64,000 nucleotides of DNA from an uncultured Bacilli bacterium (GCA_910588025.1 CAJUQG010000004.1:3086-67085), one strand, 5' to 3'. Counted from the first letter of the stretch, positions 37,030 to 61,263 are shown. Numbers and translations are program-made. The notes: generated by a model not told the origin, from the sequence alone.

Positions 37030-37106
37030 GGCGGAATTGGTGAAGTGGTTAACACGGCAGATTGTGGCTCTGTTATGCGTGGGTTCGATTCCCACATTTC
37101 GCCCCA
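37030..37106 (+). tRNA. tRNA-His (anticodon GTG) with genomically encoded G-1
   Basis: An extra 5' G precedes the acceptor stem GCGGAAT/ATTTCGC. The anticodon stem GCAGA/TCTGT encloses loop TTGTGGC, giving GTG. The T-arm is GTGGG-TTCGATT-CCCAC, with discriminator C and an encoded CCA. Confidence 0.85.
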
Positions 37107-37354
37107 TATTGAATTTTACACACATCTTTGTGTGAAAGCTAAAGTAAAAGTTCGTGATATTTGATATTATGAACTTTTTTTTCCTTACCAGAGGTAATAA
37201 ATTGAAAAAACATTCCATTATTTTATAAACAGAATATAAAAAAACAAAATAGATAAGAGTCTACAAAAAAGTATTTTAATGATTTATATTCTGTTCCTGT
37301 ATATATTTTTTCTAATGAAGGAATAAAGCATAAAAAAATAGAAAGGAACAATTT

Positions 37355-37453
37355 ATGGAAGAAACTAGATTATCTCAAATTAATGATACTGAATTAACTG
37401 ATGAGCAAATTGACAATATTGTTTATTCAGATATAGAAGATGATGGATTATGA
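37355..37453 (+). CDS. acidic 32-aa small ORF (hypothetical)
   Basis: The translation is MEETRLSQINDTELTDEQIDNIVYSDIEDDGL. An RBS AGAAAGGAAC lies 7 nt upstream, and the ORF sits between tRNA-His and the AIPR-like gene. Confidence 0.25.
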   Translation: MEETRLSQINDTELTDEQIDNIVYSDIEDDGL

Positions 37454-37603
37454 ATAATAAGGTAAACTTTTAACTAGAGTTGCCTTTTTTGTTACTCTTT
37501 TATAAGATATAAAATAAAAAGAAAATTTTACCAATTGTGATAGTAATTTTAGTTTAAAACTTTAAAATATATTGTATAATATTCGTATTTGTAGGTGATT
37601 ATT

Positions 37604-39289
37604 ATGAAAAAATTTATTCGTCATCAAAACAATATGATTTTTGTAAGTGATGATAATTTTAAAACGTTTGATACATTACATAAAGAATCAATAGATGCAA
37701 TAGAAGAAACAAATCATGATACTATAACACAAGTAAAACTACGTTATATGTTATCAGAGAAAAAAGCAAATATTATAATAAAAGAGTTAAAAGCTATTCG
37801 TAAACAATTTAAATTAGAAAAAAAAGACGGTTATGGTTCCTCTTTTGAAATCTTTGCTATTTCTGTATTATATAATTTAGATTATCAAGAAACCTATGAT
37901 AATTTTATTGTAACAGGTAATAATGATGGAAAAGTTGATGCCATTTATTGGTATGGAAAAGAATGTATTTTATATCAAATTAAACTTGGAACATGTGATG
38001 TTGAAATTAAAAATATAATTAATAAAAATCATTTAGAATTCTTAAGAGATAATACGATCACAGAAAAAAATACTTCTGATTTATTAAAATTTTATCAAAA
38101 TCATTCAAATGAAATAAAAGAAAAAAACTTTAAAATCAAAACAATATCTCAAAATTTAAAGAATAAAGCCAATATATCTCCACTTGAAATTATGGAAAAA
38201 TACTTTGAAAATAAGATTATTAATCAAAAAAATCACCTAGTTTTAAAACTAAGTATTCCTAAAAAAACAAGATCAGATGATGTTACTACCTTCTTGATAG
38301 CACAAAGTAAGAATGAAGTTTATGCTTATTTTATATCTGCTGAAAAATTAAAAAAAGAATTATTAAATTGTAGTGGTATCAAAAATATTGAAAATCTTCA
38401 CAAGTTTTTCTCAGAAAATGTTCGTGGCGATTTAGGACCCAATAAAAATATGATTCATACCATAAAAGCTAATCCCAAAAACTTTGTAAAATATAACAAT
38501 GGTATAACAATTATGGGAAATGTCGAATACAAGGAAGAGATAGGCTTATTAACTATCACGAATCCTATTATTAATAATGGTCAACAAACACTTTGGAATT
38601 TATTAACCCAAGAAACCGTAAAAGATGTTGAAGTTCTTGTAATAGTCAAAAATGATTCAAAGCCTTCCGTGAAAGATAAAATAGCTCGTTTTACAAATGA
38701 ACAACGACAAATAAAACCTGTTGATCTATACTCATTAGATGAAAATTTAAGAAAGATTCAGATTGATTTATACCAAGATAAAGAATTTCGAGAAGAAATG
38801 TTTTTAAATATTAATAAAAGTGGAAAAAAGCAATATGACATGTTAATGAAACAAATCTACTCCTCAGAATCCATAATTCAAGTAGATGAGTTTTGTCGAT
38901 TATATTTTTCTACATCAGATAATCAAATAGGAAAGTGGAAGAATAATATTTCCAGCATGATTGAAAATCAGTTAGATGAAAGTCCATCTTTTGATTTTGC
39001 AAAAGCCAAAAAAATCTGCCAAATTATAAAAACTTTTAAAGTAGAATTAAAGCAACTGAGTAAAGAAGAAAAGAATGATTTAAAAGCCGCTGACTTAGCA
39101 ACAATGTATATTATGTATACAGCTAAAAAAACGTTTCAGGAAGCTTTTGAAATAATTAAAAAGATTAATCTGGCTAATTTTTATGAAGTACCTATTTCTC
39201 AAAGAAAAAGTAAATTAATAGACCTATATAAAGTGGATAGTATTTTTTATTTAATTCAAAATGAAATAAAAACGGCTGTAACAAATTAA
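37604..39289 (+). CDS. AIPR-like abortive-infection-type protein with an N-terminal PD-(D/E)xK-like nuclease motif
   Basis: The N-terminal region ...SSFEIFAISVLYNLDY...GNNDGKVDAIYWYGKECILYQIKLG matches the D...(D/E)xK pattern of Mrr/AIPR-type domains. The protein is 562 aa and lies in an AT-rich region after a tRNA. A GTAGGTGA RBS and an extended -10 TGTATAAT are present. Confidence 0.4.
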   Translation: MKKFIRHQNNMIFVSDDNFKTFDTLHKESIDAIEETNHDTITQVKLRYMLSEKKANIIIKELKAIRKQFKLEKKDGYGSSFEIFAISVLYNLDYQETYDNFIVTGNNDGKVDAIYWYGKECILYQIKLGTCDVEIKNIINKNHLEFLRDNTITEKNTSDLLKFYQNHSNEIKEKNFKIKTISQNLKNKANISPLEIMEKYFENKIINQKNHLVLKLSIPKKTRSDDVTTFLIAQSKNEVYAYFISAEKLKKELLNCSGIKNIENLHKFFSENVRGDLGPNKNMIHTIKANPKNFVKYNNGITIMGNVEYKEEIGLLTITNPIINNGQQTLWNLLTQETVKDVEVLVIVKNDSKPSVKDKIARFTNEQRQIKPVDLYSLDENLRKIQIDLYQDKEFREEMFLNINKSGKKQYDMLMKQIYSSESIIQVDEFCRLYFSTSDNQIGKWKNNISSMIENQLDESPSFDFAKAKKICQIIKTFKVELKQLSKEEKNDLKAADLATMYIMYTAKKTFQEAFEIIKKINLANFYEVPISQRKSKLIDLYKVDSIFYLIQNEIKTAVTN

Positions 39290-39304
39290 CCTTAATGTTA
39301 CAGC
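39274..39304. terminator. bidirectional terminator between convergent genes
   Basis: A 9-10-bp stem GCTGTAACA/TGTTACAGC spans the stop codon and is followed by TATTTTTAAAATTT. Confidence 0.55.
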
Positions 39305-39327
39305 TATTTTTAAAATTTAAATTAAAA

Positions 39328-40881
39328 TTATAATTCAGTATATTCACTTGTTTTATTAAGTTGATTCTCATGTTCGTTGATAACTAAACTTTTTGTTGTA
39401 AAAAGCATCGTGGCAATCGAAGTGGCATTACACAAAGTAGTTTTTGTTACTTGAAAAGGATCAATAATAGAAGAATGTGTGACATTTTCAAATTTTTCCG
39501 TATTAACATTATATATTTTTTGAAAATTATTTTTTTTAATTTCCTGATATATTTTAGAAGAATCAAGACCAGCGTTTTCAAGAATTTGAAAAAATGGTTT
39601 TTGCAAAGCTTCTTTAAAAATAGCTTTAACTTCATCTTTGGCTTCTAATTCTTCTGCTATTTTTAAAAGTGTGACGCCACCTCCAAGTAAAATGCCATCT
39701 TCACAACTAGCTAAAGCACAAAGTGCATCTTCTAAACGCATCTTTTTTTCATGACATTCTGTTTTTGTAGGAGCTCCAACCAAGATTTCTGCTAAACCGT
39801 TTTGAAACATAGCAATTCGTTTTTGATAAAAAGCAAGTTCAAATTCATCATGATATTCGTTCATTTCATTCTTTAATAAATCAACATATTGCAAAATTTG
39901 AGAATTATTTTGAAAGTCAAAACGAGCTTGATTTTTGTTAATCATAATATGTTCAATAAAACCTAAATTTTCTGGAGTAATAAAATGATAATTTTCTATA
40001 ATCTTTGCATGCGTAAGCGCTTCAATATCGCTTTCTAACTTTCTTTGATGTAAACCATATTCTGAAATTTTTAAAACACAACAAGAAAGCTCATTACTTA
40101 AATTCAAAGATACAATTTCTTTGAAAGCTGTTTCATCATATTCATTTACAAAAATAATCAAAGGTTCCTTATTTTTCATACAATCATTTAAAATAAAACT
40201 AATGTTTTCTAAGTTACTTAAATAATCATGAATAATTAATACTTTGGCGTTTGTAAAAGTAATATTAGTTTGTTCTTTTAGAAAATAATCACTTAATAGT
40301 TCTGTTTCAACGGTATATCCTTGTAAATAATTGATAGTTAATTGATTTTCTAAAACCTCTTTTATCATGATTGCGTTTTTACTTTTTACTGTTTGAAAAG
40401 CTTGAAATGCACAATTTCCTAAATAATTATCATTTGCAGCAATTGTGGCAATTTGTAACAAATTATTTTCATCGGGTTTTCTGGCTTCAGTTTCCAGAAT
40501 ACTTAATATTTCTGATAAGTAAAGATCCATTTTTTTCTTTAAAAAAATGGGATTGATTCCTTTTTCAATATATGTAAGACTGGAATTAAAAAGACTTTGT
40601 AATAAAACTAAGGTCGTTGTAGTTCCATCTCCAACAATATCATTCGTTTTTAAAGAAGCTTCTTTAGCAATTTCTAAAATAGTATTAACAACCTCATCTT
40701 CGCTCACTATATTTTTAGCAATTGTAGCTCCATCATTTGTAATAAAAGGGGTAAATAAAGAATGGTCAATAATAACATTGCTTCCTTTTGGTCCCAAAGT
40801 ACACCCAACTGTATCACACAAAGAATTAATACTTTCTTTCATCTTTTCTTGCAATAATGTTCCACTAACAACTTTTTTCAT
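39328..40881 (-). CDS. divergent Cpn60/TCP-1 family chaperonin-like protein
   Basis: The chaperonin equatorial-domain signatures TLGPKGSNVIID, FITNDGATIAKNI, IVGDGTTTTLVLLQ and ILLGGGVTLL are present. The protein is 517 aa with no GGM tail, and no co-chaperonin is nearby. Its ATG overlaps the upstream gene stop (ATGA on the minus strand). Confidence 0.6.
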   Translation of the reverse strand: MKKVVSGTLLQEKMKESINSLCDTVGCTLGPKGSNVIIDHSLFTPFITNDGATIAKNIVSEDEVVNTILEIAKEASLKTNDIVGDGTTTTLVLLQSLFNSSLTYIEKGINPIFLKKKMDLYLSEILSILETEARKPDENNLLQIATIAANDNYLGNCAFQAFQTVKSKNAIMIKEVLENQLTINYLQGYTVETELLSDYFLKEQTNITFTNAKVLIIHDYLSNLENISFILNDCMKNKEPLIIFVNEYDETAFKEIVSLNLSNELSCCVLKISEYGLHQRKLESDIEALTHAKIIENYHFITPENLGFIEHIMINKNQARFDFQNNSQILQYVDLLKNEMNEYHDEFELAFYQKRIAMFQNGLAEILVGAPTKTECHEKKMRLEDALCALASCEDGILLGGGVTLLKIAEELEAKDEVKAIFKEALQKPFFQILENAGLDSSKIYQEIKKNNFQKIYNVNTEKFENVTHSSIIDPFQVTKTTLCNATSIATMLFTTKSLVINEHENQLNKTSEYTEL

Positions 40882-41627
40882 ATTTCATTTTCCATTTCTA
40901 TCATATATTTCCAATATTTTTTGGGCATAAAATTTCTACGACAGCGGTCGTTTTTCCGAGTTTCTATTCCAATCGTTTGATAAAACAATTTCCATAATTT
41001 CTCCATTTCCCATTCTTGTTGACTAAGCTTTGTAGTACTAAGCTTAAAATCATTTTCAGAAATTAGAATATACTTATGTTTATCATATATACTTAGTATT
41101 CCTCTTTTTACATCTTTAATAATCCAATATTCTTGTTTTAAACGTTTTTCAAAATGATGAGAAATAAAATAAAGAATATCATTTAATGGTTCTATTTCTG
41201 CATAAAGAACATGATTGTCTAATTCTTTAAATCGAATAAACCCTTTATATTTATGAGCTTCATGTAAAACATATTTTGAAATGGTAATGGCTTTCGTGAC
41301 ACATTTCAAATTTCGGTGGTATAACAGCTGATCTTTATATTTAAAACCATTTAAAATTAGATAATAAATAATTAGCTCTTTGTTCTCTTCAGTTGATAAA
41401 AAAACGTAATAAATCGTACGATAAGTATCTGGTCCCATTTCTTGAATAAGATTTGTAATAAGTTCTGGATCTTCAGAAATTTCTAAATGAATAATTTCAT
41501 CTAATAAAGTAGGGGAATAATAAGTATTTTGAATATTTCCAGGTTTCATTTTATTTTTTATAAGAAAATAGATTAAATTAAGTAATTGTACAAAAGTATC
41601 ATCATAAATATAACAACTATTATTCAT
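40878..41627 (-). CDS. UDG-related probable DNA-metabolism protein (TIGR03915-like partner of the radical SAM protein)
   Basis: The N-terminus IYDDTFVQLLNLIYF and the C-terminal core HKYKGFIRFKELDNHVLYAEIEPLNDILYFISHHFEKRLKQEYWIIKDVKRG match this family. The protein is 249 aa, and a TGAGGT RBS lies upstream. Confidence 0.65.
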   Translation of the reverse strand: MNNSCYIYDDTFVQLLNLIYFLIKNKMKPGNIQNTYYSPTLLDEIIHLEISEDPELITNLIQEMGPDTYRTIYYVFLSTEENKELIIYYLILNGFKYKDQLLYHRNLKCVTKAITISKYVLHEAHKYKGFIRFKELDNHVLYAEIEPLNDILYFISHHFEKRLKQEYWIIKDVKRGILSIYDKHKYILISENDFKLSTTKLSQQEWEMEKLWKLFYQTIGIETRKNDRCRRNFMPKKYWKYMIEMENEI

Positions 41628-42834
41628 GAAATAACCTCAATTGCTCATGAGGTCTAGAAGTAGGAAGTATTTCTTCATATACCAAGTTTTTTTCAATAAA
41701 CTCTTTTTTAAAAAGTTGTGGATTCATAAAATATTTTCCATTGCACGTAATAAAATATTTAGCTCGTTTTAACACAACACCCATTTTTTTTAAGTCATCA
41801 AATGATACTTGAAAAATACGTCGTGAAGACAAAATTCGTTTAGCAGACTTTACACCAATTCCAGGAATTTTTAAAAGATCATAATAAGAGCAATGATTAA
41901 TTTCTTTTGGAAATTCTTCTATATGTCGTAAAGCCCAATCAGCTTTCGGGTCAATTAAAATATTAAAATTAGGATTTTTTTGGTCTAAAAGATCACGAAC
42001 TTGAAAATGATAAAAACGTAGTAACCAATCTGCTTGATAAAGACGATTTTCTCTCTTTAAAGGTGGCTTTTCTAACGATGGTAAGAATGAATCATGATTA
42101 ACAGGAATGTAAGCAGAATAAAAAACTCGTTTTAATTGATAATTATTATATAATGACGCGCTTTTCTCCATGATATCTAAATCACTTTCTTTTGTTGCAC
42201 CAATAATCATTTGCGTACTTTGTCCAGCTGGAACAAAATGCTTAGTTTGATTTTCTTTCACATATCCCATAATTTTTTCAACTTTAGTTTTATCTTTGTT
42301 CGGAGCTAAAAGTTTTAAACCATGTTCTGTTGGTAACTCAATATTAGCGCTTAATCTATCAACAAGCAATCCAAGTTCTTTTAATTTTTTTTCACTAGCT
42401 CCAGGGATTGCCTTTGCATGAATATATCCTCCAAAATGGTATTTTTTTCTCAAAAGTGTAATGGTTTGAACCAAAAGGTCCATCGTATAATCTGGACTTT
42501 TAATAATTCCTGAACTTAAAAACAAACCTTCTATATAATTGCGCCGATAAAAGTTTAATGTAATTTCACAAATTTCTTCTGGTGTAAATATAGCTCTTGG
42601 AATAGAATTACTTTTACGATTTAAACAATATTTACAATCAAAAATACAACAATTCGTCATAAGTATTTTTAAAAGGGAAATACATCTTCCATCAGAAGAA
42701 AATGAATGACAAATTCCTGAAAAAGCTACATTACCAATTCCATTTTTTGATGTTCTAGTACTTCCACTAGATGAACAAGAAGCATCATATTTTGCACTAT
42801 CAGCTAGAATTTTTAGCTTTTCTTCTAAGTTCAT
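41620..42834 (-). CDS. radical SAM protein with a C-terminal helix-hairpin-helix (TIGR03916-like putative DNA modification/repair rSAM)
   Basis: The N-terminus EEKLKILADSAKYDASCSSSG and the 4Fe-4S motif CIFDCKYC (Cx3Cx2C) are present. A C-terminal helix-hairpin-helix LLKIPGIGVKSAKRIL is also present. A GGTGA RBS precedes ATG 42834, and the reported ORF extends to a TTG at 42846. Confidence 0.8.
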   Translation of the reverse strand: MNLEEKLKILADSAKYDASCSSSGSTRTSKNGIGNVAFSGICHSFSSDGRCISLLKILMTNCCIFDCKYCLNRKSNSIPRAIFTPEEICEITLNFYRRNYIEGLFLSSGIIKSPDYTMDLLVQTITLLRKKYHFGGYIHAKAIPGASEKKLKELGLLVDRLSANIELPTEHGLKLLAPNKDKTKVEKIMGYVKENQTKHFVPAGQSTQMIIGATKESDLDIMEKSASLYNNYQLKRVFYSAYIPVNHDSFLPSLEKPPLKRENRLYQADWLLRFYHFQVRDLLDQKNPNFNILIDPKADWALRHIEEFPKEINHCSYYDLLKIPGIGVKSAKRILSSRRIFQVSFDDLKKMGVVLKRAKYFITCNGKYFMNPQLFKKEFIEKNLVYEEILPTSRPHEQLRLFHE

Positions 42835-42920
42835 ACCAATCACCAAAAATTATTATAATATAACAGCCAGCAATAATCAAACAAAAGTTTGTGTTAATTT
42901 ATTCCATTTATATAAATTTC

Positions 42921-43106
42921 TTAACTATTTTTTTTGACTCTAGATAAAGTTTTTGTTTGATTTAACTGCGACCCAAATGTATCATAATTAGGATTTTGAT
43001 TCGGTTGATAAAAAGACTCAAATTGCTTTTGTTTCTCTTCTTTTTGCAATTGTTGTTTTAATGGAAAAATAGGATTAACTTTTTCTACCTTTTGAATTAG
43101 TTTCAT
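42921..43106 (-). CDS. small Q/K-rich hypothetical protein
   Basis: The 61-aa protein from ATG 43106 has a GAGGT RBS and the translation MKLIQKVEKVNPIFPLKQQLQKEEKQKQFESFYQPNQNPNYD... Confidence 0.3.
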   Translation of the reverse strand: MKLIQKVEKVNPIFPLKQQLQKEEKQKQFESFYQPNQNPNYDTFGSQLNQTKTLSRVKKNS

Positions 43107-43254
43107 AGTAACCTCGCTTTTTAAAATATATGAAAAAGAAAAAAGATAATGATAAAAAAAGGAAATAGCCGATTCATATCGAATAATGATAATGAGGAGG
43201 TAAAAAATATTCAAAATACCAAATTTTTGCTATACTAAGTAAAAGGTGTTTGGT

Positions 43255-44139
43255 ATGAAAAAAAGATATTATTGGCTCATTATTATATTAATAGGTAGTA
43301 TTTTGGGAATTATCCAAACTTCATTTAGCTTTCAAAATGAAGAACATTTAGAACAAAATTGGGAAGGAGAACAACAAAAGAATAATAATTTTCTAAAAAT
43401 TCACTATTTAGATGTAGGACAAGGTGACGCAATATTTATTGAATTACCAAATCAACAGAACCTTTTAATAGATGGTGCAGAATCCAAAGAAAAAGAAAAG
43501 ATAATAGATTATATAAATAGATTAAATAAACAAAAAATTGATTATTTAATAGCAACGCATCCTCATGCCGATCATATAGGTGGACTGGCCTCTATCATAG
43601 AACAATTCGATATTGGTAAAATTTATATGCCCAAAGCAATTTCGACCAGTAAAACATATGAAAATCTATTAAAGACGATTATTAATGCCGATTTAAAAAT
43701 AGCTACTGCCAAAAAAGATTTAATCATTTTAAATGATGAAAATTTAAAAATGCAATTTTTATCTCCCCAAGAATCTCATTATCAAGATTTAAATAATTAT
43801 TCTGCTGTATTAAAAATAACTTATCAGAAGCATAATTTTTTGTTTATGGGAGATGCTGAGAAATTAATTGAAGATGAAATCACTGAGGATGTAAACGCAG
43901 ATATTATTAAAGTAGGTCATCATGGAAGTAATACTTCATCTAGTTTAAATTTTGTGAATCGTGTATCTCCCAAATATGCAATCATATCCGTTGGTTCAAA
44001 GAATCAGTATCAACATCCTCACAAAGAGATTATTAAAAGATGGCAACAAGTCGGTGCTCAAGTATTACAAACCGATTTACATGGAACCATTATAGCTCAG
44101 TCAGATGGATTTAATTTACAAATTAAAACAGAAAAATAG
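43255..44139 (+). CDS. ComEC/Rec2-related metallo-beta-lactamase domain protein (stand-alone)
   Basis: HYLDVGQGDAIFIE, ATHPHADHIGG and VGHHGSNTSS match the ComEC C-terminal MBL domain. An N-terminal TM/signal, an extended -10 TGCTATACT and an AAAGGTG RBS are present. Confidence 0.75.
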   Translation: MKKRYYWLIIILIGSILGIIQTSFSFQNEEHLEQNWEGEQQKNNNFLKIHYLDVGQGDAIFIELPNQQNLLIDGAESKEKEKIIDYINRLNKQKIDYLIATHPHADHIGGLASIIEQFDIGKIYMPKAISTSKTYENLLKTIINADLKIATAKKDLIILNDENLKMQFLSPQESHYQDLNNYSAVLKITYQKHNFLFMGDAEKLIEDEITEDVNADIIKVGHHGSNTSSSLNFVNRVSPKYAIISVGSKNQYQHPHKEIIKRWQQVGAQVLQTDLHGTIIAQSDGFNLQIKTEK

Positions 44140-44154
44140 AAAGTAAGTGAAGAA

Positions 44155-44364
44155 ATGAAAGTAATAATTGACCGTTTTGAAAAAGATATGGCTATCATTG
44201 AAATAAAAGAAGGTGTCTTCACACACATGCCGAAAATTCTCCTTCCTCATGCCAAAGAAGGCGATGTAGTGGATATTATTGTAAATAATAAAGAAACAGA
44301 AGAAAGAAAACAAATGGTGGCTGATTTGATGAATCGAGCATTTGAAAGTGAGAGCGAACAATGA
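44155..44364 (+). CDS. DUF3006 family small protein
   Basis: MKVIIDRFEKDMAIIEIKEGVF matches the DUF3006 N-terminus. This family is characteristically adjacent to ComEC-type MBL genes. Confidence 0.6.
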   Translation: MKVIIDRFEKDMAIIEIKEGVFTHMPKILLPHAKEGDVVDIIVNNKETEERKQMVADLMNRAFESESEQ

Positions 44365-44615
44365 AATTTGACCATTTAATCAAAAATATTATCGCTGAAA
44401 AGAAAACTGTTTTTATGAATGATAGCTTTACTTTAACAGAAGAACAAGTTAGCGTTTTAAATCGATATAATATCCCCTTTGAATCTTGTCATTCTACTCA
44501 AGAATTAATTTTTTGTATCGAAGAAGTATTAGATAGTGGCATAATGGATGATTCGTTAGAAAGTATTTCCATTTCACTTGCTGAACATGATTATTATCAA
44601 AATTATAAAAAATGA
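44361..44615 (+). CDS. hypothetical protein
   Basis: The 84-aa ORF begins in an ATGA overlap with the upstream gene and has no recognisable motif. Confidence 0.35.
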   Translation: MKFDHLIKNIIAEKKTVFMNDSFTLTEEQVSVLNRYNIPFESCHSTQELIFCIEEVLDSGIMDDSLESISISLAEHDYYQNYKK

Positions 44616-45069: not shown

Positions 45070-45150
45070 GAAATCACCTATTAAAGAATGATATGTAATA
45101 AAAATTAGAATATGAGTAAAATGGTGATACAATAACAAAGGGTGTTTCCT

Positions 45151-47529
45151 ATGCAGTATTTAATCATAACAAATGAATTAGATAAAAAAAGAATCCTAAA
45201 AGAATTACGAAAAGAATTCCCTTTTTTAAATGCTAAAGTATTAGGATATCGAGAACTGATTCAAAATTTATATTTTAATTATACAGAAGAAACCATCTAT
45301 TATATTGTTGAAAAATATCAAATAACAAAAGAAATAGCGATCAATTATTTAGAAAATTTATACTTTATAAATTTTGAAAAAACGAGCTATCCCAAATTAA
45401 TATTTCTCCAAAATTTATATCAAGAATTATTACAAGCAAATTTATTAAAAATAAATCCATTATGGAAAAAAGATTTAAAACAAAAAAAAATAATATTTTA
45501 TCATTTAAATCAAAATGATAACTTTTTTCAAAAAATAATGAGAGAATGCCAAAAGATTACTAAGATAGAGCAAATTGATTGGTCGATAAAAGAAGACCAA
45601 AAAATAACACTAACACCTTATTTAAATAGGGAAAGTGAAGTCATTGGAATTTGTAATCAAATTTGTGAATTAATAAAAACAGGCAAAAAAATATCAGATA
45701 TATATTTAGCAAATTTATCAACAGAATATTATAATTTATTGGAAACTTATGCTTCTTTTTTTCATTTACCAATTAATTTAAAGAAAAAAGAAACATTTTA
45801 TTCTAGTTTTATAGTTACAGACTTTCAAGAACTATATGTAGATGATTTAAAAACTGCAATAAAGAAATTACAAGAAAAATATCCTAAGGAAGAAGAAAAA
45901 ATTGTCTTAGAATGGATTATTTCCATTTGCAATAAATATATTTTTATAAAAGATGAGCAAAAGAAAAAACAATTTATCTTAGAAGATTTGAAAAATCAAA
46001 AAAAACCGAATCAAAAAATTGAACTAGGGATACAAGAAATTGATTTTTATGAAAATGAAATTTCCGAAGATTCCATCTTATTTCTATTAGGTGTTAACGA
46101 AAGTTTTTTTCCTAAAATTCAAAAAGATGAAGCATATTTAAGTGATAAAGAAATGCACGCATTAGGTTGGAATACATCAAGTGAAAAAAATGCTTTAGAA
46201 AAAGAGAGATGTTTAAAAAAATTAAAAACTTTTTCTTCCGTTTGTTTATCTTATCCTAAGAAAGATGGGAAAATCGATTTATATCCATCTAGTATTTTAG
46301 ATGAGCTTATTTATGAAATAAAAGAACCAAAAGTTAATCATCAACATTCTCATATTTACAATTTATTAGAATTTGGTCAAAAAATGGACCAATATTACAA
46401 ATATGGGACAAAAGATGAAAATTTAGAAAATCTATATAATACTTATCCAAATGTTTATAATTCTTTTAAAAATGAGTACACCCAAATAAAACGAAAAGAA
46501 AAAGACCCAATAAAGTTATCTTATTCTTCTTTAGATACATTTTTTCATTGTAGCTTTAAATATTATTTAGACTATATTTTACGGTTAAATGATCATGAAG
46601 AAAATTTTGCTCAGAAAATAGGATGTTTATTTCATGAAATACTAAAAGATTGTTACAATTCTAATTTTAATTTTGAAAAATCGTGGCAAGAACATATTGA
46701 AAATTTTACCTTAAAAGAAAAGCAAGAATATTATTTTTTAAACAAACTACAAGAAGACTTAAAAAGAGTGATTAATACATTAAAAAAACAAGAAGATGGA
46801 AAAAGTTTTAATATAAAAACAGAAGAAAAGATTGTGATGTCACTAACCGATGACAATAGAGTACAATTAAGTGGTATCATGGATAAAATCTTTTGGAAGG
46901 AAAAAGATGGAAAGACTCTTGTAAGTGTAATAGACTATAAAACAGGTAATCCTTCATTAAGTCTAGACGAAACTCCACATGGCTTAAATCTTCAATTACC
47001 AATTTATTTAATATTATTACATAATTTACCTTTTGAAAATATTAAAGTCATAGGTTTTTACTTACAAAAAATATTGCCATCGCTTCCAGAACGAGATGCA
47101 GTCCACAGTGAAAATGAATTAAAAATGAAAAATTTATTACTTCAAGGATATAGTACAGATGAAGAAAAGTTTTTAAAAGAATTTGATCCTTCTTATCAAG
47201 ATAGCAAACTAATTAAAAGTATGAAAATGAGTTCCAAAGGATTCTATCCTTATTCTAAAATATTAAGTGAGCAAAAACTTCAAAAATTAGAACAAATAAC
47301 CTTAAATAAAATAAAAGAAGCCATAAGAGATATCCAAAATGAAAATTTCTCTATCAATCCAAAAAGGTTATCTAATAATTTAATAGGTTGTGCTTATTGT
47401 AATTATCAAAGTATTTGTTTTCGTAAGGAAAAAGATATTGTAAATTTAAAAGAATTAAAAGCAAGTGAATTTTTAGGGAGTGATAACATTGCCAACATGG
47501 ACGAAAGAACAGAGCGATGCCATTTATAA
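45151..47529 (+). CDS. addB: helicase-nuclease complex subunit B (AddB/RexB-like)
   Basis: A C-terminal nuclease domain is followed by an Fe-S cysteine cluster (CSFKYY ... CAYCNYQSICF). The gene sits directly upstream of addA, and an AAGGGTG RBS is present. Confidence 0.8.
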   Translation: MQYLIITNELDKKRILKELRKEFPFLNAKVLGYRELIQNLYFNYTEETIYYIVEKYQITKEIAINYLENLYFINFEKTSYPKLIFLQNLYQELLQANLLKINPLWKKDLKQKKIIFYHLNQNDNFFQKIMRECQKITKIEQIDWSIKEDQKITLTPYLNRESEVIGICNQICELIKTGKKISDIYLANLSTEYYNLLETYASFFHLPINLKKKETFYSSFIVTDFQELYVDDLKTAIKKLQEKYPKEEEKIVLEWIISICNKYIFIKDEQKKKQFILEDLKNQKKPNQKIELGIQEIDFYENEISEDSILFLLGVNESFFPKIQKDEAYLSDKEMHALGWNTSSEKNALEKERCLKKLKTFSSVCLSYPKKDGKIDLYPSSILDELIYEIKEPKVNHQHSHIYNLLEFGQKMDQYYKYGTKDENLENLYNTYPNVYNSFKNEYTQIKRKEKDPIKLSYSSLDTFFHCSFKYYLDYILRLNDHEENFAQKIGCLFHEILKDCYNSNFNFEKSWQEHIENFTLKEKQEYYFLNKLQEDLKRVINTLKKQEDGKSFNIKTEEKIVMSLTDDNRVQLSGIMDKIFWKEKDGKTLVSVIDYKTGNPSLSLDETPHGLNLQLPIYLILLHNLPFENIKVIGFYLQKILPSLPERDAVHSENELKMKNLLLQGYSTDEEKFLKEFDPSYQDSKLIKSMKMSSKGFYPYSKILSEQKLQKLEQITLNKIKEAIRDIQNENFSINPKRLSNNLIGCAYCNYQSICFRKEKDIVNLKELKASEFLGSDNIANMDERTERCHL

Positions 47530-50500
47530 AAGTGGCAAGAATATCATTGTGAGCGCTGGGGCAGGAAGTGGTAAAACCGCTGTTTTAACAACAAGAGTAC
47601 TTCATAAGTTAGAAAATGGAATACATGTGAATGAATTATTAATTTTAACTTTTACAAAAGCAGCGGCAAGTGAAATGAAAGAGCGAATTCGTAAAAACTT
47701 AAGAAAAAAGCCAGATTTAAAACCTGAGTTATTACTACTTGACACAGCTTATGTGACAACGTTTGATTCTTTTTCGTTATCGATTGTCAAAAAGTATCAT
47801 TACCTTTTAAATGTTTCATCAAATTTAAAAATTACAGATAATACGATGATTGAAATGTTGCGAAAAGATGTTCTAAGAAAGACAATGGATAAATTTTATA
47901 CAAATAAAGATGTCAACTTTTTAAAGCTCATTGATGAATTTTGTGTCAAAGATGACCATGAAATTTACGATGCGATGTTAAATATATCAAAATCTTTCGA
48001 AAAAGACTTTACCAAATTAGAACGATTAGACGGTTATCAACAGCTTTATTTTAGCGAGCAAAAAATAGAAGAATATTTAAACGAATTTGAGCAATTAGTT
48101 ATTAAAAAACAAAGTGATTTAAAAGAGAAAATAAACGAATTTGAACGAATCGCGTCTAAAGATTATATTAGTAAAATTTATGAAAATCTAAATGGATTAT
48201 TATCGTTTTCAACTATTGACGATTTAGTAAGTGTAAAATCTTCGAAAATACCACCTCTTCCTAAAAATTCTGAAGAGGAAATTAAAGAAGAAAAAGAACA
48301 ATTAAATAATGTATTAAAAGATTTAAAAAAATTATTGGATTATGGTACAAAAGAGCAATTGAAAAACGATTTGTTGCAACTAAAAGAATTTGTTAATATA
48401 TTTGTGCTAGTATTGAAAGATTATTTGAAGGAGTTTGAAAATCAAAAAAAGGAAAAGAACTATTATGATTTTAATGATATTGCTTTTTTAGCTTTAAATT
48501 TGCTCAAAAATAATCAAGAAGTATGCGATGAAATAAAAAATAGTTTTAAAGAGATTATGATTGACGAATATCAAGATACCAATGATATTCAAGAAGAATT
48601 TATTCGATTAATTTCTCAAAATAATGTTTACATGGTAGGTGACATTAAACAAAGTATTTATCGGTTTCGAAATGCTAATCCTTATCTATTTAAAAAGAAA
48701 TATGATAATTATCGCCAAAAAATAAATGGAGAAAAAATTGACTTATTAAAAAATTTTCGTTCCCGAAAAGAAGTGTTACAAAATATAAATTTGATTTTCA
48801 ATAATATTATGATAGATAACTTTGGAGGAGCAAATTATCTAGAAGAGCATCAAATGGTTTTTGGTAATCAAGATTATTTAGAAAAAGGTCTTACCTCTGA
48901 AAATTATAATATGGAAATATTGACTTATGAAAATCCTAAAAATACTGGTTTTACTAAAGAAGAACTTGAAGTGTTTGCAATTGGCAAAGATATTCAAAAA
49001 AAAATAAACGAAGGATATTTACTATATAATAAAGATGAAAATCAAGTCCATCCAGCTAAATATCAAGATTTTGTTATTTTAATGGACCGAAGCAGTAGTT
49101 TTGATCTATACAAAAAAATATTTAATTATTTAAAAATTCCTATTTCTATTGAGAAAGATGAAACATTAAATGATTCTACTTGTTTTTTAGTAATTAAAAA
49201 TTTATTGAAAGTTCTTCTTTCGTATACAGAGAAAAATTTTGACACAAACTTTCGCTTTTCTTTTGTGAGCGTTTTAAGAAGTTTTTTATTCAATTATCAA
49301 GACCAAGCAATTTATGATTTATTACAATCTTCTTCATGGTATCAAAATCAATTATATGAAACAATTCGGCCTATCTTAAACAATATTTCAACGAAATCGA
49401 TAACTAAAATATTGCACGAAGTTTATGAGTGCACTGAATTATATCGTAAAATGATTCAAATTGGTGATATAAAAGAAAATATGATGATTCTGTCAAGTAT
49501 TCAAAATTTAGCTGAAAATTATCAACTTGAAGGAAAAAACTTGAAATCTTTTTATGAATTTTTATCACGAATTAACAAAGAAGAAATGAATATAACTTAT
49601 ACAAATGAAACAACCAGTAATGAATGTGTAAAGATTATGACTATCCATAAATCCAAAGGTCTAGAATATCCTATTTGTTATTTTAGTGGATTATATAAAA
49701 ACTTTAATATTTCAGATGTGAAAGAAAAATTTATATATGATAAAAAATATGGAATCATAACACCTTTGAAAGAAGAGGGGATGTATAGTTGCTTCCTAAA
49801 AGAATTAATAAAAGAAAATTATTTAATAGAAGAAATTTCTGAAAAAATTCGTTTATTTTATGTAGCTGTAACAAGAGCAAAAGAAAAAATGATTTTTCTC
49901 GTACCAAAAAAAGAAAAAGAATTTCCAAATGGTATTCAAAATCAGCAAATAAAGTGTCGCTCTTTAGCAGATTTTTTATATATGATTTGGGACTATTTAA
50001 AATCATATCAAATTCCTGTAAATCAAAACGAGATTTCTTTAACAAAAAATTATTTAAATACAGAACTTGAAAAAAATTGGCAAAAAAACAGTAAGTTAAA
50101 ATTACAGATTCAAGAATTAGAATATCAAAAAGAAGAAAAATCCCAGATAAAATATTCCAAAAATATGATTTCATTAAATAACCTAGAAGACGATAAAAAC
50201 ATAAAACTAGGTTTAAAAATTCATGAATATCTTGAACTAATTGACTTTCATAATCCAGATTATTCTGTTATATCTGAAAAAATAATTCAAAATAAAATTA
50301 AAAAGTTTTTAAATTCTTCATTTTTACAAAAACGGTTGAATGGAGAAATTTATAAAGAATACGAATTTGTTTTTGAAAATGAAAATAAAGAGCATCACGG
50401 TATTATTGATCTAATGATAATTGAGGATAATTTAATTACGATTGTGGATTATAAATTAAATCATTTATTCGATGAAGCCTATATTAAGCAATTAAATGGT

Positions 50501-50608
50501 TACCAAGAATATATAAAAGAACAAAGTGGAAAACCAGTTGAACTGTACTTATATTCTATTTTAAAAGAGGATTTTTTAGCTATTAAAAACAATCAAGTTA
50601 TGTTATGA
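47480..50608 (+). CDS. addA: ATP-dependent helicase/nuclease subunit A (AddA, UvrD-like)
   Basis: The N-terminus WTKEQSDAIYKSGKNIIVSAGAGSGKTAVL (Walker A), DEYQDTN, a UvrD helicase core and a C-terminal RecB-family nuclease (GIIDLMI...VDYK) are present. The start is either GTG 47480 or TTG 47489. Confidence 0.85.
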   Translation: MITLPTWTKEQSDAIYKSGKNIIVSAGAGSGKTAVLTTRVLHKLENGIHVNELLILTFTKAAASEMKERIRKNLRKKPDLKPELLLLDTAYVTTFDSFSLSIVKKYHYLLNVSSNLKITDNTMIEMLRKDVLRKTMDKFYTNKDVNFLKLIDEFCVKDDHEIYDAMLNISKSFEKDFTKLERLDGYQQLYFSEQKIEEYLNEFEQLVIKKQSDLKEKINEFERIASKDYISKIYENLNGLLSFSTIDDLVSVKSSKIPPLPKNSEEEIKEEKEQLNNVLKDLKKLLDYGTKEQLKNDLLQLKEFVNIFVLVLKDYLKEFENQKKEKNYYDFNDIAFLALNLLKNNQEVCDEIKNSFKEIMIDEYQDTNDIQEEFIRLISQNNVYMVGDIKQSIYRFRNANPYLFKKKYDNYRQKINGEKIDLLKNFRSRKEVLQNINLIFNNIMIDNFGGANYLEEHQMVFGNQDYLEKGLTSENYNMEILTYENPKNTGFTKEELEVFAIGKDIQKKINEGYLLYNKDENQVHPAKYQDFVILMDRSSSFDLYKKIFNYLKIPISIEKDETLNDSTCFLVIKNLLKVLLSYTEKNFDTNFRFSFVSVLRSFLFNYQDQAIYDLLQSSSWYQNQLYETIRPILNNISTKSITKILHEVYECTELYRKMIQIGDIKENMMILSSIQNLAENYQLEGKNLKSFYEFLSRINKEEMNITYTNETTSNECVKIMTIHKSKGLEYPICYFSGLYKNFNISDVKEKFIYDKKYGIITPLKEEGMYSCFLKELIKENYLIEEISEKIRLFYVAVTRAKEKMIFLVPKKEKEFPNGIQNQQIKCRSLADFLYMIWDYLKSYQIPVNQNEISLTKNYLNTELEKNWQKNSKLKLQIQELEYQKEEKSQIKYSKNMISLNNLEDDKNIKLGLKIHEYLELIDFHNPDYSVISEKIIQNKIKKFLNSSFLQKRLNGEIYKEYEFVFENENKEHHGIIDLMIIEDNLITIVDYKLNHLFDEAYIKQLNGYQEYIKEQSGKPVELYLYSILKEDFLAIKNNQVML

Positions 50609-60519: not shown

Positions 60520-61263
60520 ATGAAAAAAGCCAAATTAAAAAATAGCAAATGGATCAAACCGAAAGTATCAACTATTTTAACTATGATACTTCTTTCTATT
60601 TGCTTTTTTAGTGGCATCATTTTGCTAAAATTTAATCAAAATGTAACTCCAAAATTAATCGAAGTAGCTTCCAAAAACTTAGAAAAATTAACATTTAATC
60701 TTTTTAATAACTATAACATAATGACCCAATTAGACGATGACATAGCAGGCAATATTTTAAATATTCATCATAATAATAAAGGAGAAATTATTAATATAAG
60801 TTACAATACCAAAAATGCTTATCATATTGCCAATTTACTCGCAAATCGGATCAAAAATGATTTTAATGCAATTGAAAATGGTAAATTAAACATTGAATAT
60901 TATGATCAAGAACTTTCCAATGGCTTAGATGGATTTGTTTTAAGTCTACCAGTTGGCGTAGCAAGTAATTCCATTTATTTCACCAATTTAGGACCAAGAA
61001 TTCCTGTCAAAATTAAATTTATTGGAACCATTCTAACAAATTTAAAAACAAAAGTTCAAAATTATGGTATCAATAATGCATTGATAGAAGTTTACATCGA
61101 TGTGTCAATAAGTCACGAAATTATTACACCTGTAACACTTCAAACCAAAGAATTAAAATATGAAATTTTGATTGGAGCAGAAATAATAAATGGAATAGTA
61201 CCATCTTTGTATGGTGGACTTTATGAGACAAAAAGCAACATTTTAAATATTCCTATCAATTAA
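60520..61263 (+). CDS. yunB: sporulation protein YunB
   Basis: An N-terminal TM helix is present. LGPRIPVKIKFIGTIL ... NYGINNALIEVYIDV ... IGAEIINGIVP is collinear with conserved YunB blocks. Confidence 0.65.
   Translation: MKKAKLKNSKWIKPKVSTILTMILLSICFFSGIILLKFNQNVTPKLIEVASKNLEKLTFNLFNNYNIMTQLDDDIAGNILNIHHNNKGEIINISYNTKNAYHIANLLANRIKNDFNAIENGKLNIEYYDQELSNGLDGFVLSLPVGVASNSIYFTNLGPRIPVKIKFIGTILTNLKTKVQNYGINNALIEVYIDVSISHEIITPVTLQTKELKYEILIGAEIINGIVPSLYGGLYETKSNILNIPIN

What the first reader, a model, noticed from the sequence alone, without database searches (positions are those of the whole stretch)
39328..42846. Translationally coupled operon: radical-SAM HhH protein, UDG-related partner and a Cpn60/TCP-1-family chaperonin-like protein
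Three minus-strand genes overlap by 4-8 nt, with an ATGA overlap at each junction. The first two are recognisable as the known two-gene pair of a radical SAM enzyme (motif CIFDCKYC, N-terminus EEKLKILADSAKYDASCSSSG, C-terminal helix-hairpin-helix) and a UDG-family-4-related 'probable DNA metabolism' partner. The third gene is unexpected. It is a 517-aa protein carrying the diagnostic chaperonin equatorial-domain motifs (LGPKG, ITNDGATI as in group II/CCT rather than GroEL ITKDG, GDGTTT, GGGV). It has no GroES gene, no GGM tail, and it sits in an AT-rich islet next to an Abi-like gene rather than in a heat-shock context. A dedicated chaperonin-family ATPase coupled to a DNA-modification/repair radical SAM pair is not, to my knowledge, a described arrangement. 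It could be a client-specific folding or remodelling component, or a repurposed ATPase in a defence or repair system.
Basis: partly seen in the sequence, partly recalled or inferred. Interest (0 to 1): 0.8.

Follow-up and report, generated by a model that had tools for sequence, protein, structure and literature searches.

The report
DNA-damage operon with its own chaperonin
A large group of uncultured gut bacteria has welded a fast-evolving GroEL-type chaperonin with no GroES gene beside it onto a widespread but uncharacterised two-gene radical-SAM "DNA repair" operon that carries an SOS-type operator, which suggests a private chaperonin for one DNA-damage enzyme.

Summary
Three overlapping minus-strand genes (39328-42834) encode a TIGR03916 radical-SAM/HhH protein, its TIGR03915/DUF4130 partner and a 517-aa Cpn60-family protein.

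Three details needed correcting:
- The partner has no UDG domain here.
- The chaperonin is a divergent group I (GroEL) type, not group II. ITNDG is normal in Firmicutes GroEL.
- The operon is not an AT-rich islet, and the Abi-like neighbour is not conserved.

New findings:
- The triad was found in about 27 lineages of uncultured "Bacilli bacterium" gut MAGs wherever the sequence sufficed, down to 32% chaperonin identity and in different flanks. One species has lost the radical-SAM core.
- In the reverse test, rSAM relatives at 61-76% identity all carry the chaperonin (10/10). Relatives at or below 62% never do (0/57).
- ATPase and hinge residues are invariant, but the apical domain is remodelled (about 22% identity to GroEL). 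There is no GGM tail and no groES in any fetched locus.
- The chaperonin evolves faster than both partners.
- A conserved Cheo/LexA-like palindrome overlaps the -35, and there is no CIRCE.

Best reading: a probably SOS-inducible operon with a dedicated chaperonin for the rSAM-DUF4130 complex. The function is inferred, not shown. I could not establish whether these genomes also hold a canonical groESL.

The parts
42878..42891 (.). Operator: perfect palindrome CAAAC-N4-GTTTG, resembling the Cheo/LexA box, overlapping the -35 hexamer.
   Evidence: It is the only match in the 64-kb window at up to 1 mismatch. A box of the same type sits about 47-69 nt (mostly about 58) before the rSAM ATG in most orthologous upstream regions. 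Three triad loci (L118, L119, L121) scored no box at 8/10 or better. 56 of 75 upstream regions of rSAM relatives carry a match of 8/10 or better to CGAAC-N4-GTTCG, against 2.5 +/- 1.5 in shuffles and 2/67 in control windows.
42852..42880 (-). Sigma-70-type promoter: -35 TTGATT, 17-nt spacer, -10 TATAAT. It is followed by the GGTGA Shine-Dalgarno at 42840-42844.
   Evidence: This is the best promoter-like site in the region, 10 of 12 matches. The -10 and GGTGA are the most conserved columns of the 16-locus upstream alignment A3.
41620..42834 (-). Gene 1: radical-SAM protein with a C-terminal helix-hairpin-helix, TIGR03916 family, 404 aa.
   Evidence: TIGR03916 614 bits against a cut-off of 343.5; PF04055 34.8 bits; HhH hits are below Pfam thresholds. 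The CX3CX2C cysteines C63/C67/C70, plus C20, C42, C51, C89 and C364, are invariant in 13 orthologues.
40878..41627 (-). Gene 2: DUF4130/TIGR03915 partner, 249 aa, without a UDG domain. Its start overlaps the rSAM stop by 8 nt.
   Evidence: TIGR03915 217 bits over residues 6-245; PF13566 150 bits. The junction sequence was read.
39328..40881 (-). Gene 3: divergent group I chaperonin paralogue ('Cpn60L'), 517 aa. Its start overlaps the DUF4130 stop by 4 nt (ATGA).
   Evidence: PF00118 173.6 bits; GroEL models 335-362 bits. AF2 pLDDT 91 and pTM 0.82. Foldseek TM 0.89 to GroES-bound GroEL subunits. ATPase residues are invariant in 120 homologues. Junction read.
39262..39312 (.). Terminator hairpin after gene 3, flanked by an A-run and a U-run. 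It is shared with the convergent AIPR gene and is probably bidirectional.
   Evidence: RNA fold gives -16 kcal/mol, z = -5.8, and 0 of 200 shuffles fold as well. The consensus scanner missed it because the loop exceeds its 8-nt limit (12 nt in the fold).

Best explanation
This is a three-gene operon that is probably inducible by DNA damage (SOS).

- A repressor, most likely LexA, binds a palindrome over the -35 hexamer.
- On derepression one transcript yields three translationally coupled products. These are the TIGR03916 radical-SAM/HhH enzyme, its DUF4130 partner (together the widespread but uncharacterised putative DNA repair/modification pair), and a specialised GroEL paralogue.
- The paralogue keeps an intact ATP-driven chaperonin engine and its ring-forming elements. 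Its apical client and co-chaperonin surface and its C-terminal tail have been rebuilt.
- I infer that it works without a GroES gene of its own, as a dedicated folding, holding or assembly factor for the rSAM-DUF4130 complex. That complex is a partial TIM-barrel Fe-S enzyme made in a burst, at a time when the CIRCE/HrcA heat-shock chaperones are not induced.

Shown:
- the operon architecture;
- its strict conservation within the clade;
- the conserved operator;
- an intact ATPase site;
- the diverged apical domain;
- the absence of groES, of CIRCE and of a GGM tail.

Inferred: that LexA is the repressor, that the protein forms rings, and that the rSAM/DUF4130 pair is its client.
For: 1. Strict co-occurrence in both directions.
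- Every chaperonin homologue of this family whose contig reaches far enough upstream has DUF4130 overlapping its start. The rSAM gene lies before that, in different flanking contexts, from 77% down to 32% chaperonin identity.
- In 80 metagenome loci fetched with the rSAM, relatives 61-76% identical to the window rSAM that had enough downstream sequence all have the chaperonin (10/10). The 57 loci at or below 62% identity have DUF4130 but no chaperonin. They have no other conserved third gene either.

2. The family forms a single clade in an NJ tree. Its sister lineage, P0201, is also in a triad.

3. Engine kept, client surface changed.
- T30, G32, P33, D52, D87, G88, T89, D398, G414 and D495 and the hinge glycines G192 and G410 are invariant in 120 members. 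N479 and G416 are in 119 of 120.
- L234 becomes S, V264 becomes S and Y199 becomes L. The R197-E386 salt bridge is lost, and the inter-ring residues R452, A109 and V464 are unconserved.
- Apical-domain identity to canonical GroEL is 0.22-0.23. E. coli against Anaerococcus is 0.61 over the same domain.
- A conserved tail, LVINE..N.LNK..EY.EL, replaces the GGM repeats.

4. It does not behave like a housekeeping gene. Mean pairwise identity is 0.43 for the chaperonin, 0.50 for DUF4130 and 0.73 for the rSAM. That order holds in 354 of 368 locus pairs.

5. Regulation.
- A Cheo-like palindrome sits at a similar position over the -35 in most triad loci.
- The wider rSAM family carries Cheo boxes in 56 of 75 upstream regions, against 2.5 expected.
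- In one triad genome, two CIRCE elements precede hrcA-grpE-dnaK, while the triad there has CGAACATTTTTTCG instead.
- The window has no CIRCE.

6. Literature.
- The TIGR03916/03915 operon has been predicted as LexA-regulated in Verrucomicrobia (PMC4951493).
- An rSAM-DUF4130 heterodimer is predicted with high confidence (bioRxiv 10.64898/2026.08.19.745780).
- GroE is required for UmuC/Pol V stability in E. coli (PMC6590174).
- Phage chaperonins act without a co-chaperonin (PMC7185714, PMC9598537).
Against: - There is no experimental or structural evidence that the chaperonin touches the rSAM or DUF4130.
- Related two-gene operons (rSAM 53-62% identical) manage without a private chaperonin.
- One species (L005/L006/L012) has lost the radical-SAM core and the operator, yet keeps intact DUF4130 and chaperonin ORFs. 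The three assemblies are virtually identical, so the loss may be very recent.
- I could not show that these genomes also have a canonical groESL. A general role is therefore not excluded.
- LexA is inferred from the motif only. No lexA, recA or uvr promoters from this clade were available for comparison.
Confidence: 0.5

Rival explanations
1. It is simply these organisms' general-purpose chaperonin. On this view the only GroEL of a reduced genome happens to be parked behind the repair pair.
For: - No canonical groESL could be tied to any triad-bearing MAG. The best candidate, P0379, came from a different MAG.
- All ATPase residues are intact.
- JGI annotates some members as 'chaperonin GroEL'.
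- Some Mollicutes-like lineages are known to lack groESL (my own knowledge).
Against: - It evolves faster than both operon partners, unlike housekeeping GroEL.
- Its apical domain is only about 22% identical to GroEL.
- No groES is present in any fetched locus.
- It has a Cheo-like operator rather than the CIRCE used by the hrcA-dnaK operon in the same kind of genome.
- It scores below the GroEL equivalog cut-off, 335 against 582.
- These genomes carry sporulation, cell-wall, Ku/LigD and HrcA genes, so they are not extremely reduced.
- The strict physical coupling to DUF4130 over deep divergence would be left unexplained.
Confidence: 0.15
2. The chaperonin-like ring is an integral, ATP-driven working part of the repair or modification machine. 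It could be a scaffold or remodeller that loads the rSAM-DUF4130 enzyme onto damaged DNA, or that processes protein-DNA substrates. On this view it is not a folding helper.
For: - The coupling is obligate and the gene order fixed.
- The apical surface is remodelled and there is a conserved new C-terminal tail.
- DUF4130 and the chaperonin are retained together in the one species that lost the rSAM core.
- M. tuberculosis GroEL1 is nucleoid-associated and binds DNA (PMC2731897).
Against: - No nucleic-acid-binding domain or motif was detected in the protein.
- The fold and catalytic residues are those of an ordinary group I chaperonin.
- Two-gene versions of the system lack any equivalent component.
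- Its high evolutionary rate fits a helper better than a catalytic core subunit.
Confidence: 0.15
3. The triad is a mobile anti-phage or other conflict system that uses a chaperonin-like ATPase.
For: - In the window it abuts an AIPR/AbiU-like gene and a tRNA-His.
- Its genomic context differs between lineages.
Against: - None of the three genes hits any PADLOC model.
- The AIPR gene is present only in the window species and L007, and is replaced by other genes in L001.
- No family member occurs in IMG/VR viral contigs, and no viral GroEL locus carries the rSAM or DUF4130.
- GC content is not distinct from the surroundings.
- The operator type is that of SOS repair genes.
Confidence: 0.04

Closest known systems
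TIGR03916/TIGR03915 two-gene 'putative DNA modification/repair radical SAM' system. This is the rSAM-HhH protein plus DUF4130, often fused to a family-4-like UDG. It is predicted as LexA-regulated in Verrucomicrobia (PMC4951493; PMC3765255; bioRxiv 10.64898/2026.08.19.745780).
   Same: Genes 1 and 2 are clear members, scoring above the curated cut-offs. They are adjacent, in the same order, and preceded by an SOS-type box.
   Different: A third, translationally coupled chaperonin gene is present. DUF4130 has no UDG domain. The genes overlap instead of being separated by gaps of about 20-480 nt as in most two-gene relatives.
Canonical bacterial GroEL/GroES (group I chaperonin)
   Same: It has the same three-domain fold (TM 0.89). 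It has identical nucleotide-binding and catalytic residues and hinge glycines, and a conserved stem-loop for ring contacts.
   Different: - Only about 30% identical overall and about 22% in the apical domain.
- No adjacent groES, no GGM tail and no CIRCE.
- Key apical hydrophobic residues are replaced.
- Inter-ring contact residues are unconserved.
- It evolves fast.
Phage-encoded GroEL homologues: phiEL gp146 and the AR9 single-ring chaperonin (PMC7185714, PMC9598537, PMC5934643)
   Same: Both are divergent GroEL-like ATPases encoded without a co-chaperonin. They are thought to act as holdases or foldases for a narrow set of clients.
   Different: This family is chromosomal and bacterial. No member of it is found in viral contigs, where the best matches are about 30% identical. 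Its PHROG 'chaperonin groEL' hit scores about the same as cellular GroEL models. It is operonic with a named enzyme pair.
Specialised GroEL paralogues of bacteria. Examples are M. tuberculosis GroEL1/Cpn60.1, which is nucleoid-associated (PMC2731897), and Chlamydia GroEL2/GroEL3 (NCBIfam NF038370/NF038369).
   Same: It is an extra, diverged GroEL copy without its own GroES and with a presumed non-housekeeping role.
   Different: It is not a member of those families: 93.5 and 87.8 bits against cut-offs of 600. None of them is translationally coupled to a radical-SAM repair pair or placed behind an SOS-type operator, as far as I know (my own knowledge).
GroE dependence of the SOS polymerase subunit UmuC in E. 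coli (PMC6590174, citing Donnelly and Walker 1992)
   Same: A chaperonin is needed for an SOS-induced DNA-damage enzyme to accumulate.
   Different: In E. coli the housekeeping GroESL does the job and belongs to a different regulon. Here the chaperonin is dedicated and co-transcribed.

Membership tests
Group I chaperonin (GroEL/Cpn60) | Matches Cpn60_TCP1 (PF00118) above the gathering score over its full length | tested here: met
   173.6 bits against 34.3, residues 23-501.
Group I chaperonin (GroEL/Cpn60) | Reaches the GroEL equivalog threshold (TIGR02348) | tested here: not met
   335 bits against a cut-off of 582.1. Only the PRK12849 subfamily model is just passed, 362.2 against 352. NCBI annotates homologues as 'hypothetical protein'.
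Group I chaperonin (GroEL/Cpn60) | Equatorial-intermediate-apical fold | tested here: met
   AF2 pLDDT 91. Foldseek TM 0.86-0.89 and rmsd 2.6-3.3 A to GroES-bound GroEL subunits 5opx_A, 4v4o_C and 1aon_A.
Group I chaperonin (GroEL/Cpn60) | ATP-binding and hydrolysis residues and hinge glycines | tested here: met
   T30, G32, P33, D52, D87, G88, T89, D398, G414, D495, G192 and G410 are invariant in 120 of 120 members. N479 and G416 are in 119 of 120.
Group I chaperonin (GroEL/Cpn60) | Partner groES gene (bicistronic groES-groEL) | tested here: not met
   tblastn with GroES finds it only upstream of the canonical Anaerococcus groEL (L016, L018). It is absent from the window and from every triad locus. 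The gene upstream is always DUF4130.
Group I chaperonin (GroEL/Cpn60) | Apical hydrophobic GroES and substrate-binding residues (Y199, Y203, F204, L234, L237, L259, V263, V264) | tested here: inconclusive
   Y203, F204, L237 and V263 are mostly kept. L234 becomes S (86/120), V264 becomes S (100/120) and Y199 becomes L (89/120).
Group I chaperonin (GroEL/Cpn60) | C-terminal Gly-Gly-Met repeat tail | tested here: not met
   It is replaced by the conserved tail LVINE..N.LNK..EY.EL.
Group I chaperonin (GroEL/Cpn60) | Heptameric rings stacked as a tetradecamer | not testable with these tools
   The ring-contact stem-loop is conserved: I38, P45 and F46 are invariant. The inter-ring residues R452, A109 and V464 are not conserved.
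Group I chaperonin (GroEL/Cpn60) | Heat-shock control (CIRCE/HrcA in Firmicutes) | tested here: not met
   There is no CIRCE in the window at up to 3 mismatches. L022 has CIRCE before hrcA but a Cheo-like box before the triad.
Group II chaperonin (thermosome/CCT) | Scores as thermosome/CCT and has a built-in helical-protrusion lid | tested here: not met
   The best group II model scores 79 bits against a cut-off of 450. There is no insertion relative to GroEL. All the top 50 structural matches listed are group I. ITNDG is also found in canonical Firmicutes GroEL.
TIGR03916/TIGR03915 putative DNA repair/modification pair | Radical-SAM protein above the TIGR03916 cut-off, with a CX3CX2C motif and a C-terminal HhH | tested here: met
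   614.3 bits against 343.5. C63/C67/C70 are invariant. HhH hits at residues 316-343 are below Pfam thresholds.
TIGR03916/TIGR03915 putative DNA repair/modification pair | Adjacent TIGR03915/DUF4130 partner in the same operon | tested here: met
   216.9 bits against 112.25, with an 8-nt overlap.
TIGR03916/TIGR03915 putative DNA repair/modification pair | UDG-like domain fused to the partner (present in only some members, so optional) | tested here: not met
   The 249-aa protein is fully covered by the 243-position TIGR03915 model, and there is no UDG hit.
TIGR03916/TIGR03915 putative DNA repair/modification pair | SOS (LexA) regulation | tested here: inconclusive
   A conserved Cheo-like palindrome overlaps the -35. 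The box is enriched across the family, 56 of 75 against 2.5 expected. LexA binding and damage induction were not tested, and no lexA or recA promoter from this clade was available.
Known anti-phage defence systems (PADLOC 2.0) | Any of the three proteins matches a defence-system model | tested here: not met
   There are no hits for the three genes. Only the neighbouring AIPR gene (AbiU) and the MBL protein hit.

The most novel reading that the evidence does not exclude
The chaperonin ring has been repurposed as a working subunit of a DNA-damage machine. On this reading it is an ATP-driven chamber or scaffold that loads, activates or recycles the rSAM-DUF4130 enzyme on lesions, or that handles protein-DNA adducts. 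That would make it the first chaperonin-fold protein with a direct role in nucleic-acid repair.
Probability: 0.12. Interest if true: 0.85.

Novelty: new variant of a known kind. Interest (0 to 1): 0.62.

Why it matters
The TIGR03916/TIGR03915 pair is reported to occur in roughly a fifth of sequenced bacterial genomes (PMC4951493) and is predicted to belong to the LexA regulon in Verrucomicrobia (PMC4951493). Its chemistry is still unknown.

A whole clade that has hard-wired a private chaperonin to the pair has several consequences:
- It suggests that the complex is difficult to fold or assemble. That is a practical hint for anyone trying to reconstitute it: co-express the cognate Cpn60L.
- It provides a natural example of a group I chaperonin with no groES beside it, narrowed to one operon's products and placed under DNA-damage control instead of heat-shock control.
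- It offers a system for asking how GroEL's apical domain and C-terminal tail evolve when the client range collapses.
- It concerns abundant, uncultured mouse, rabbit and other gut Bacilli whose biology is almost unexplored.

Tried and rejected
- **Group II/CCT affinity.** Rejected on HMM scores, on the absence of a lid insertion and on ITNDG occurring in canonical Firmicutes GroEL.
- **Defence island or phage origin.** Rejected: no PADLOC hits, the AIPR neighbour is not conserved, and no family member occurs in IMG/VR.
- **Fe-S or metal site in the chaperonin.** Only C22 (97%) and C388 (85%) are conserved, so there is no cluster-like Cys set.
- **Structure of the rSAM.** The single-sequence AF2 model is unusable at pLDDT 34.5, so no fold comparison was made.
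- **AFDB fold search for named relatives.** The library was unavailable.
- **Proving that a canonical groESL co-occurs in a triad-bearing MAG.**
  - The closest canonical GroEL, P0379 with groES upstream, belongs to a different MAG, GCA_002501285.1.
  - Look-ups were then exhausted.
- **dN/dS.**
  - No locus pairs fall in a usable divergence range. They are either at least 99.8% or at most 77% identical.
  - The three assemblies of the species lacking the rSAM core are virtually identical.
- **Cross-validating the operator on lexA, recA or uvr promoters of this clade.**
  - No lexA or recA gene lies in the triad loci then in hand.
  - The uvrB-bearing locus L192, from another MAG, shows no box upstream of uvrB.
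- **Cultured representative.** All named cluster members are 'Bacilli bacterium' MAGs.
- **Literature.** Searches for DUF4130, TIGR03916/5, chaperonin with radical SAM, GroEL paralogues, and RF39 with GroEL found no description of the triad.

Full report
**What is in the window**

Three minus-strand ORFs occupy 39328-42846. They are bounded upstream by a promoter and downstream by a terminator.

[quoted passage not shown] It has a CX3CX2C motif and a weak C-terminal helix-hairpin-helix.
  - The mechanically listed TTG start at 42846 lies inside the GGTGA ribosome-binding site.
  - All orthologues align from the ATG at 42834, so I take the protein to be 404 aa.
- **Gene 2** (40878-41627, 249 aa) is covered end to end by TIGR03915/DUF4130 (217 bits) and has no UDG domain.
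- **Gene 3** (39328-40881, 517 aa) matches PF00118 at 173.6 bits.
- **Junctions.** They are ATGAATAA, an 8-nt overlap, and ATGA, a 4-nt overlap.
- **Promoter.** The best promoter-like site in the region precedes gene 1: TTGATT, 17 nt, TATAAT.
- **Terminator.** A strong hairpin follows gene 3: -16 kcal/mol, z = -5.8. It is flanked by A and U runs and shared with the convergent AIPR gene.
- **Composition.** GC content of the operon is 0.26-0.29, no different from the window as a whole at 0.22-0.34.

**What kind of chaperonin it is**

It is a divergent group I (GroEL-type) protein, not group II.

- GroEL models score 335-362 bits. The best thermosome/CCT model scores 79 bits against a cut-off of 450.
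- It aligns to GroEL structures over its whole length without a lid insertion.
- An AF2 model built from 58 homologues (pLDDT 91, pTM 0.82) superposes on GroES-bound GroEL subunits at TM 0.86-0.89.
- It nevertheless fails the GroEL equivalog threshold, 335 against 582. NCBI calls its homologues 'hypothetical protein'.

**A conserved triad, not a coincidence**

The protein belongs to a large family.

- More than 120 clusters at 90% identity are 45-77% identical to it.
- There are about 55 clusters at 50% identity, scoring from 592 down to about 270 bits. Below that, hits merge into ordinary and other divergent GroEL-type proteins scoring about 220-250 bits.
- Every named member comes from an uncultured 'Bacilli', 'Tenericutes' or 'Firmicutes bacterium' MAG. 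Sources include mouse and rabbit gut, human-gut and bioreactor samples.

I examined the genomic context of members spanning the whole range of divergence.

- The members were P0003 (75%), P0053 (50%), P0099 (46%), P0150 and P0166 (about 40%), P0279 and P0273 (38-40%), P0171 (32-33%) and the sister lineage P0201 (32%). I also looked at ten GTDB species representatives.
- Wherever the contig reaches far enough, DUF4130 overlaps the chaperonin start by 4, 8 or 17 nt, and the TIGR03916 gene precedes it.
- The flanking genes differ between lineages.
- One species is an exception: it has lost the radical-SAM core (see 'Other observations' below).

The reverse test fetched 80 metagenome loci with the rSAM alignment.

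- Of the loci whose rSAM is at least 61-63% identical to the window's, all ten with enough downstream sequence carry DUF4130 plus the chaperonin.
- The 57 loci at or below 62% identity, each with at least 1.6 kb downstream, carry DUF4130 but no chaperonin. They have no other conserved third gene either.

In an NJ tree the family forms one clade. Its least diverged member, P0201, is closest to Clostridia-type GroELs at 40-42% identity. This is consistent with an origin from a Firmicutes GroEL followed by rapid divergence.

**What has been kept and what has changed**

Kept, across 120 members:
- The nucleotide-binding and catalytic residues (T30, G32, P33, D52, D87-G-T, D398, G414, D495) and the hinge glycines G192 and G410 are invariant. 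N479 and G416 are present in 119 of 120.
- The stem-loop that makes intra-ring contacts is also conserved.

Changed:
- The apical domain is only 0.22-0.23 identical to canonical GroEL. E. coli against Anaerococcus is 0.61 over the same domain.
- The groove residues L234 and V264 are serine in most members, and Y199 is usually leucine.
- The R197-E386 salt bridge is gone, and the inter-ring residues R452, A109 and V464 are unconserved.
- The GGM tail is replaced by a conserved LVINE..N.LNK..EY.EL tail.
- No groES gene lies in the window or in any triad locus.

The chaperonin is the fastest-evolving of the three genes. Mean pairwise identity is 0.43, against 0.50 for DUF4130 and 0.73 for the rSAM. 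That order holds in 354 of 368 locus pairs. This is the opposite of what a housekeeping GroEL shows.

**Regulation**

- A perfect palindrome, CAAACAAAAGTTTG (42878-42891), overlaps the -35 hexamer. It is the only such site in the window.
- The same box, with consensus AGCAAAC-N4-GTTTGA, lies about 58 nt before the rSAM ATG in most triad loci, although the surrounding sequence has diverged. Some lineages show canonical CGAAC or GTTCG half-sites.
- Across the wider rSAM family, 56 of 75 upstream regions carry a match of 8/10 or better to the Firmicutes LexA (Cheo) box CGAAC-N4-GTTCG. Shuffles give 2.5 +/- 1.5, and control windows give 2 of 67.
- This agrees with the published prediction that the TIGR03916/03915 operon belongs to the LexA regulon in Verrucomicrobia (PMC4951493).
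- The heat-shock operator CIRCE is absent from the window. In locus L022, two CIRCE copies precede hrcA-grpE-dnaK, while the triad in the same locus has CGAACATTTTTTCG.
- The chaperonin is therefore predicted to be induced by DNA damage, not by heat shock. That LexA is the repressor is an inference from the motif.

**Most likely mechanism**

The rSAM-DUF4130 pair is thought to be a nucleic-acid repair or modification enzyme. DUF4130 is predicted to form a tight heterodimer with the rSAM and to shape substrate binding (bioRxiv 10.64898/2026.08.19.745780; PMC3765255).

I propose that in this clade a GroEL paralogue has become the private folding, holding or assembly factor for that complex. It would be made in step with the complex by translational coupling. 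I put the confidence at about 0.5.

Precedents:
- E. coli GroE is needed for UmuC/Pol V to accumulate (PMC6590174).
- Phage GroEL homologues work without a co-chaperonin (PMC7185714, PMC9598537).
- From my own knowledge: radical-SAM enzymes are partial TIM barrels with labile Fe-S clusters. TIM barrels dominate the obligate GroEL clients.

Rivals:
- A general chaperonin in genomes that lack groESL (0.15).
- A true working subunit of the repair machine (0.15). M. tuberculosis GroEL1 binds DNA (PMC2731897).
- A defence system (0.04). There are no PADLOC hits, no members in viral contigs, and the AIPR neighbour is not conserved.

**Weak points**

- No interaction data exist.
- I could not show a canonical groESL in any triad-bearing MAG.
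- Two-gene relatives do without a private chaperonin.

**Other observations**

One species, assembled three times (L005, L006, L012), has replaced the radical-SAM core and the operator with an unrelated membrane/zinc-ribbon ORF. That ORF is fused in frame to the last 95 or so residues of the rSAM. DUF4130 and the chaperonin remain intact. The three copies are virtually identical, so this is a single and possibly recent event.

**Novelty**

Searches of the accessible literature were run for:
- DUF4130, TIGR03916 and TIGR03915;
- chaperonin together with radical SAM;
- GroEL paralogues.

None found a description of this arrangement. I rate it a new variant of a known kind. Both halves are known families. 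The fixed, probably SOS-controlled coupling of a remodelled chaperonin, with no groES beside it, to the repair pair is new.

Noticed in passing
window 37031-39289: A tRNA-His gene (37031-37106) is followed by an AIPR/AbiU-like abortive-infection gene (37595-39289) that converges on the operon. The AIPR gene is present in the window species and L007. In the 75%-identical relative L001 it is replaced by NUDIX and nucleoside-deoxyribosyltransferase genes, so it is a small variable islet unrelated to the triad.
   Followed up: partly
L005:5936-9554 (also L006 and L012): In one species the radical-SAM core and the SOS-like operator are gone. They are replaced by a membrane/zinc-ribbon/repeat ORF fused in frame to the last 95 or so residues (HhH part) of the rSAM. 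DUF4130 and the chaperonin stay intact. Three assemblies are virtually identical, so this is a single and possibly recent event.
   Followed up: partly
A3 alignment columns about 45-60; for example L009:4910-4925, window about 42895-42910: An A-rich block ending in TTGGCA, TTTCCA or TTACCA lies about 10-12 nt upstream of the operator in many triad loci. It could be a second protein site, an UP element or an upstream promoter.
   Followed up: no
window 43246-44615: Divergent from the operon is a signal- or TM-anchored ComEC-type metallo-beta-lactamase domain protein (TIGR00361 C-terminal region, 148 bits). It is followed by DUF3006 and an 84-aa ORF. The set is conserved in the close relatives L001, L007 and L104, and gives weak PADLOC hits (LmuA, DRT MBL). 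It may be an extracellular nuclease.
   Followed up: partly
window 42921-43106 (minus strand): A small ORF of about 61 aa (MKLIQKVEKVNPIF...) lies just upstream of the operator, in the same orientation as the operon. It is called as a gene in L104-L106 and L001 and is conserved only among the closest relatives. Its function is unknown.
   Followed up: partly
L123-L189 (metagenome loci), about 200 nt upstream of the rSAM genes: Two-gene TIGR03916/DUF4130 operons from many other (unidentified) metagenome contigs very often carry canonical Cheo/LexA boxes, for example CGAACATATGTTTG or AGAACATTTGTTCT, and sometimes two of them. This points to family-wide SOS control.
   Followed up: yes
L022:19543-19615: Two tandem CIRCE-like inverted repeats precede hrcA-grpE-dnaK in a genome that carries the triad 8 kb away. 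This shows the classical HrcA heat-shock regulon coexisting with the chaperonin that lacks CIRCE.
   Followed up: partly
Cpn60L residues 22 and 388, and the C-terminal 15 or so residues (window 39328-39375): The family has specific features of unknown meaning. C22 is conserved in 97% of members and C388 in 85%. The C-terminus is a conserved acidic-hydrophobic motif (..EY.EL/EI) that AF2 leaves disordered.
   Followed up: partly
Representative list (P0181, P0211, P0236, P0239) and P0378: Unusually long Cpn60-family proteins appear among the distant hits. Two are about 1080 aa, with 2-3 matched stretches. Others are about 830-840 aa with an N-terminal extension of about 300-375 residues, and one is 711 aa. 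They are unrelated to this finding.
   Followed up: no
window 45142-50608 and 60520-61263; L005:12759-15822; L020:2039-3394; L190:10451-11296: The host clade looks like a spore-forming, walled, low-GC Firmicute rather than a true mollicute. It has AddAB, YunB, CotJ and SleB-like genes. Ku/LigD or LigD genes lie within a few kb of the triad in two lineages.
   Followed up: partly
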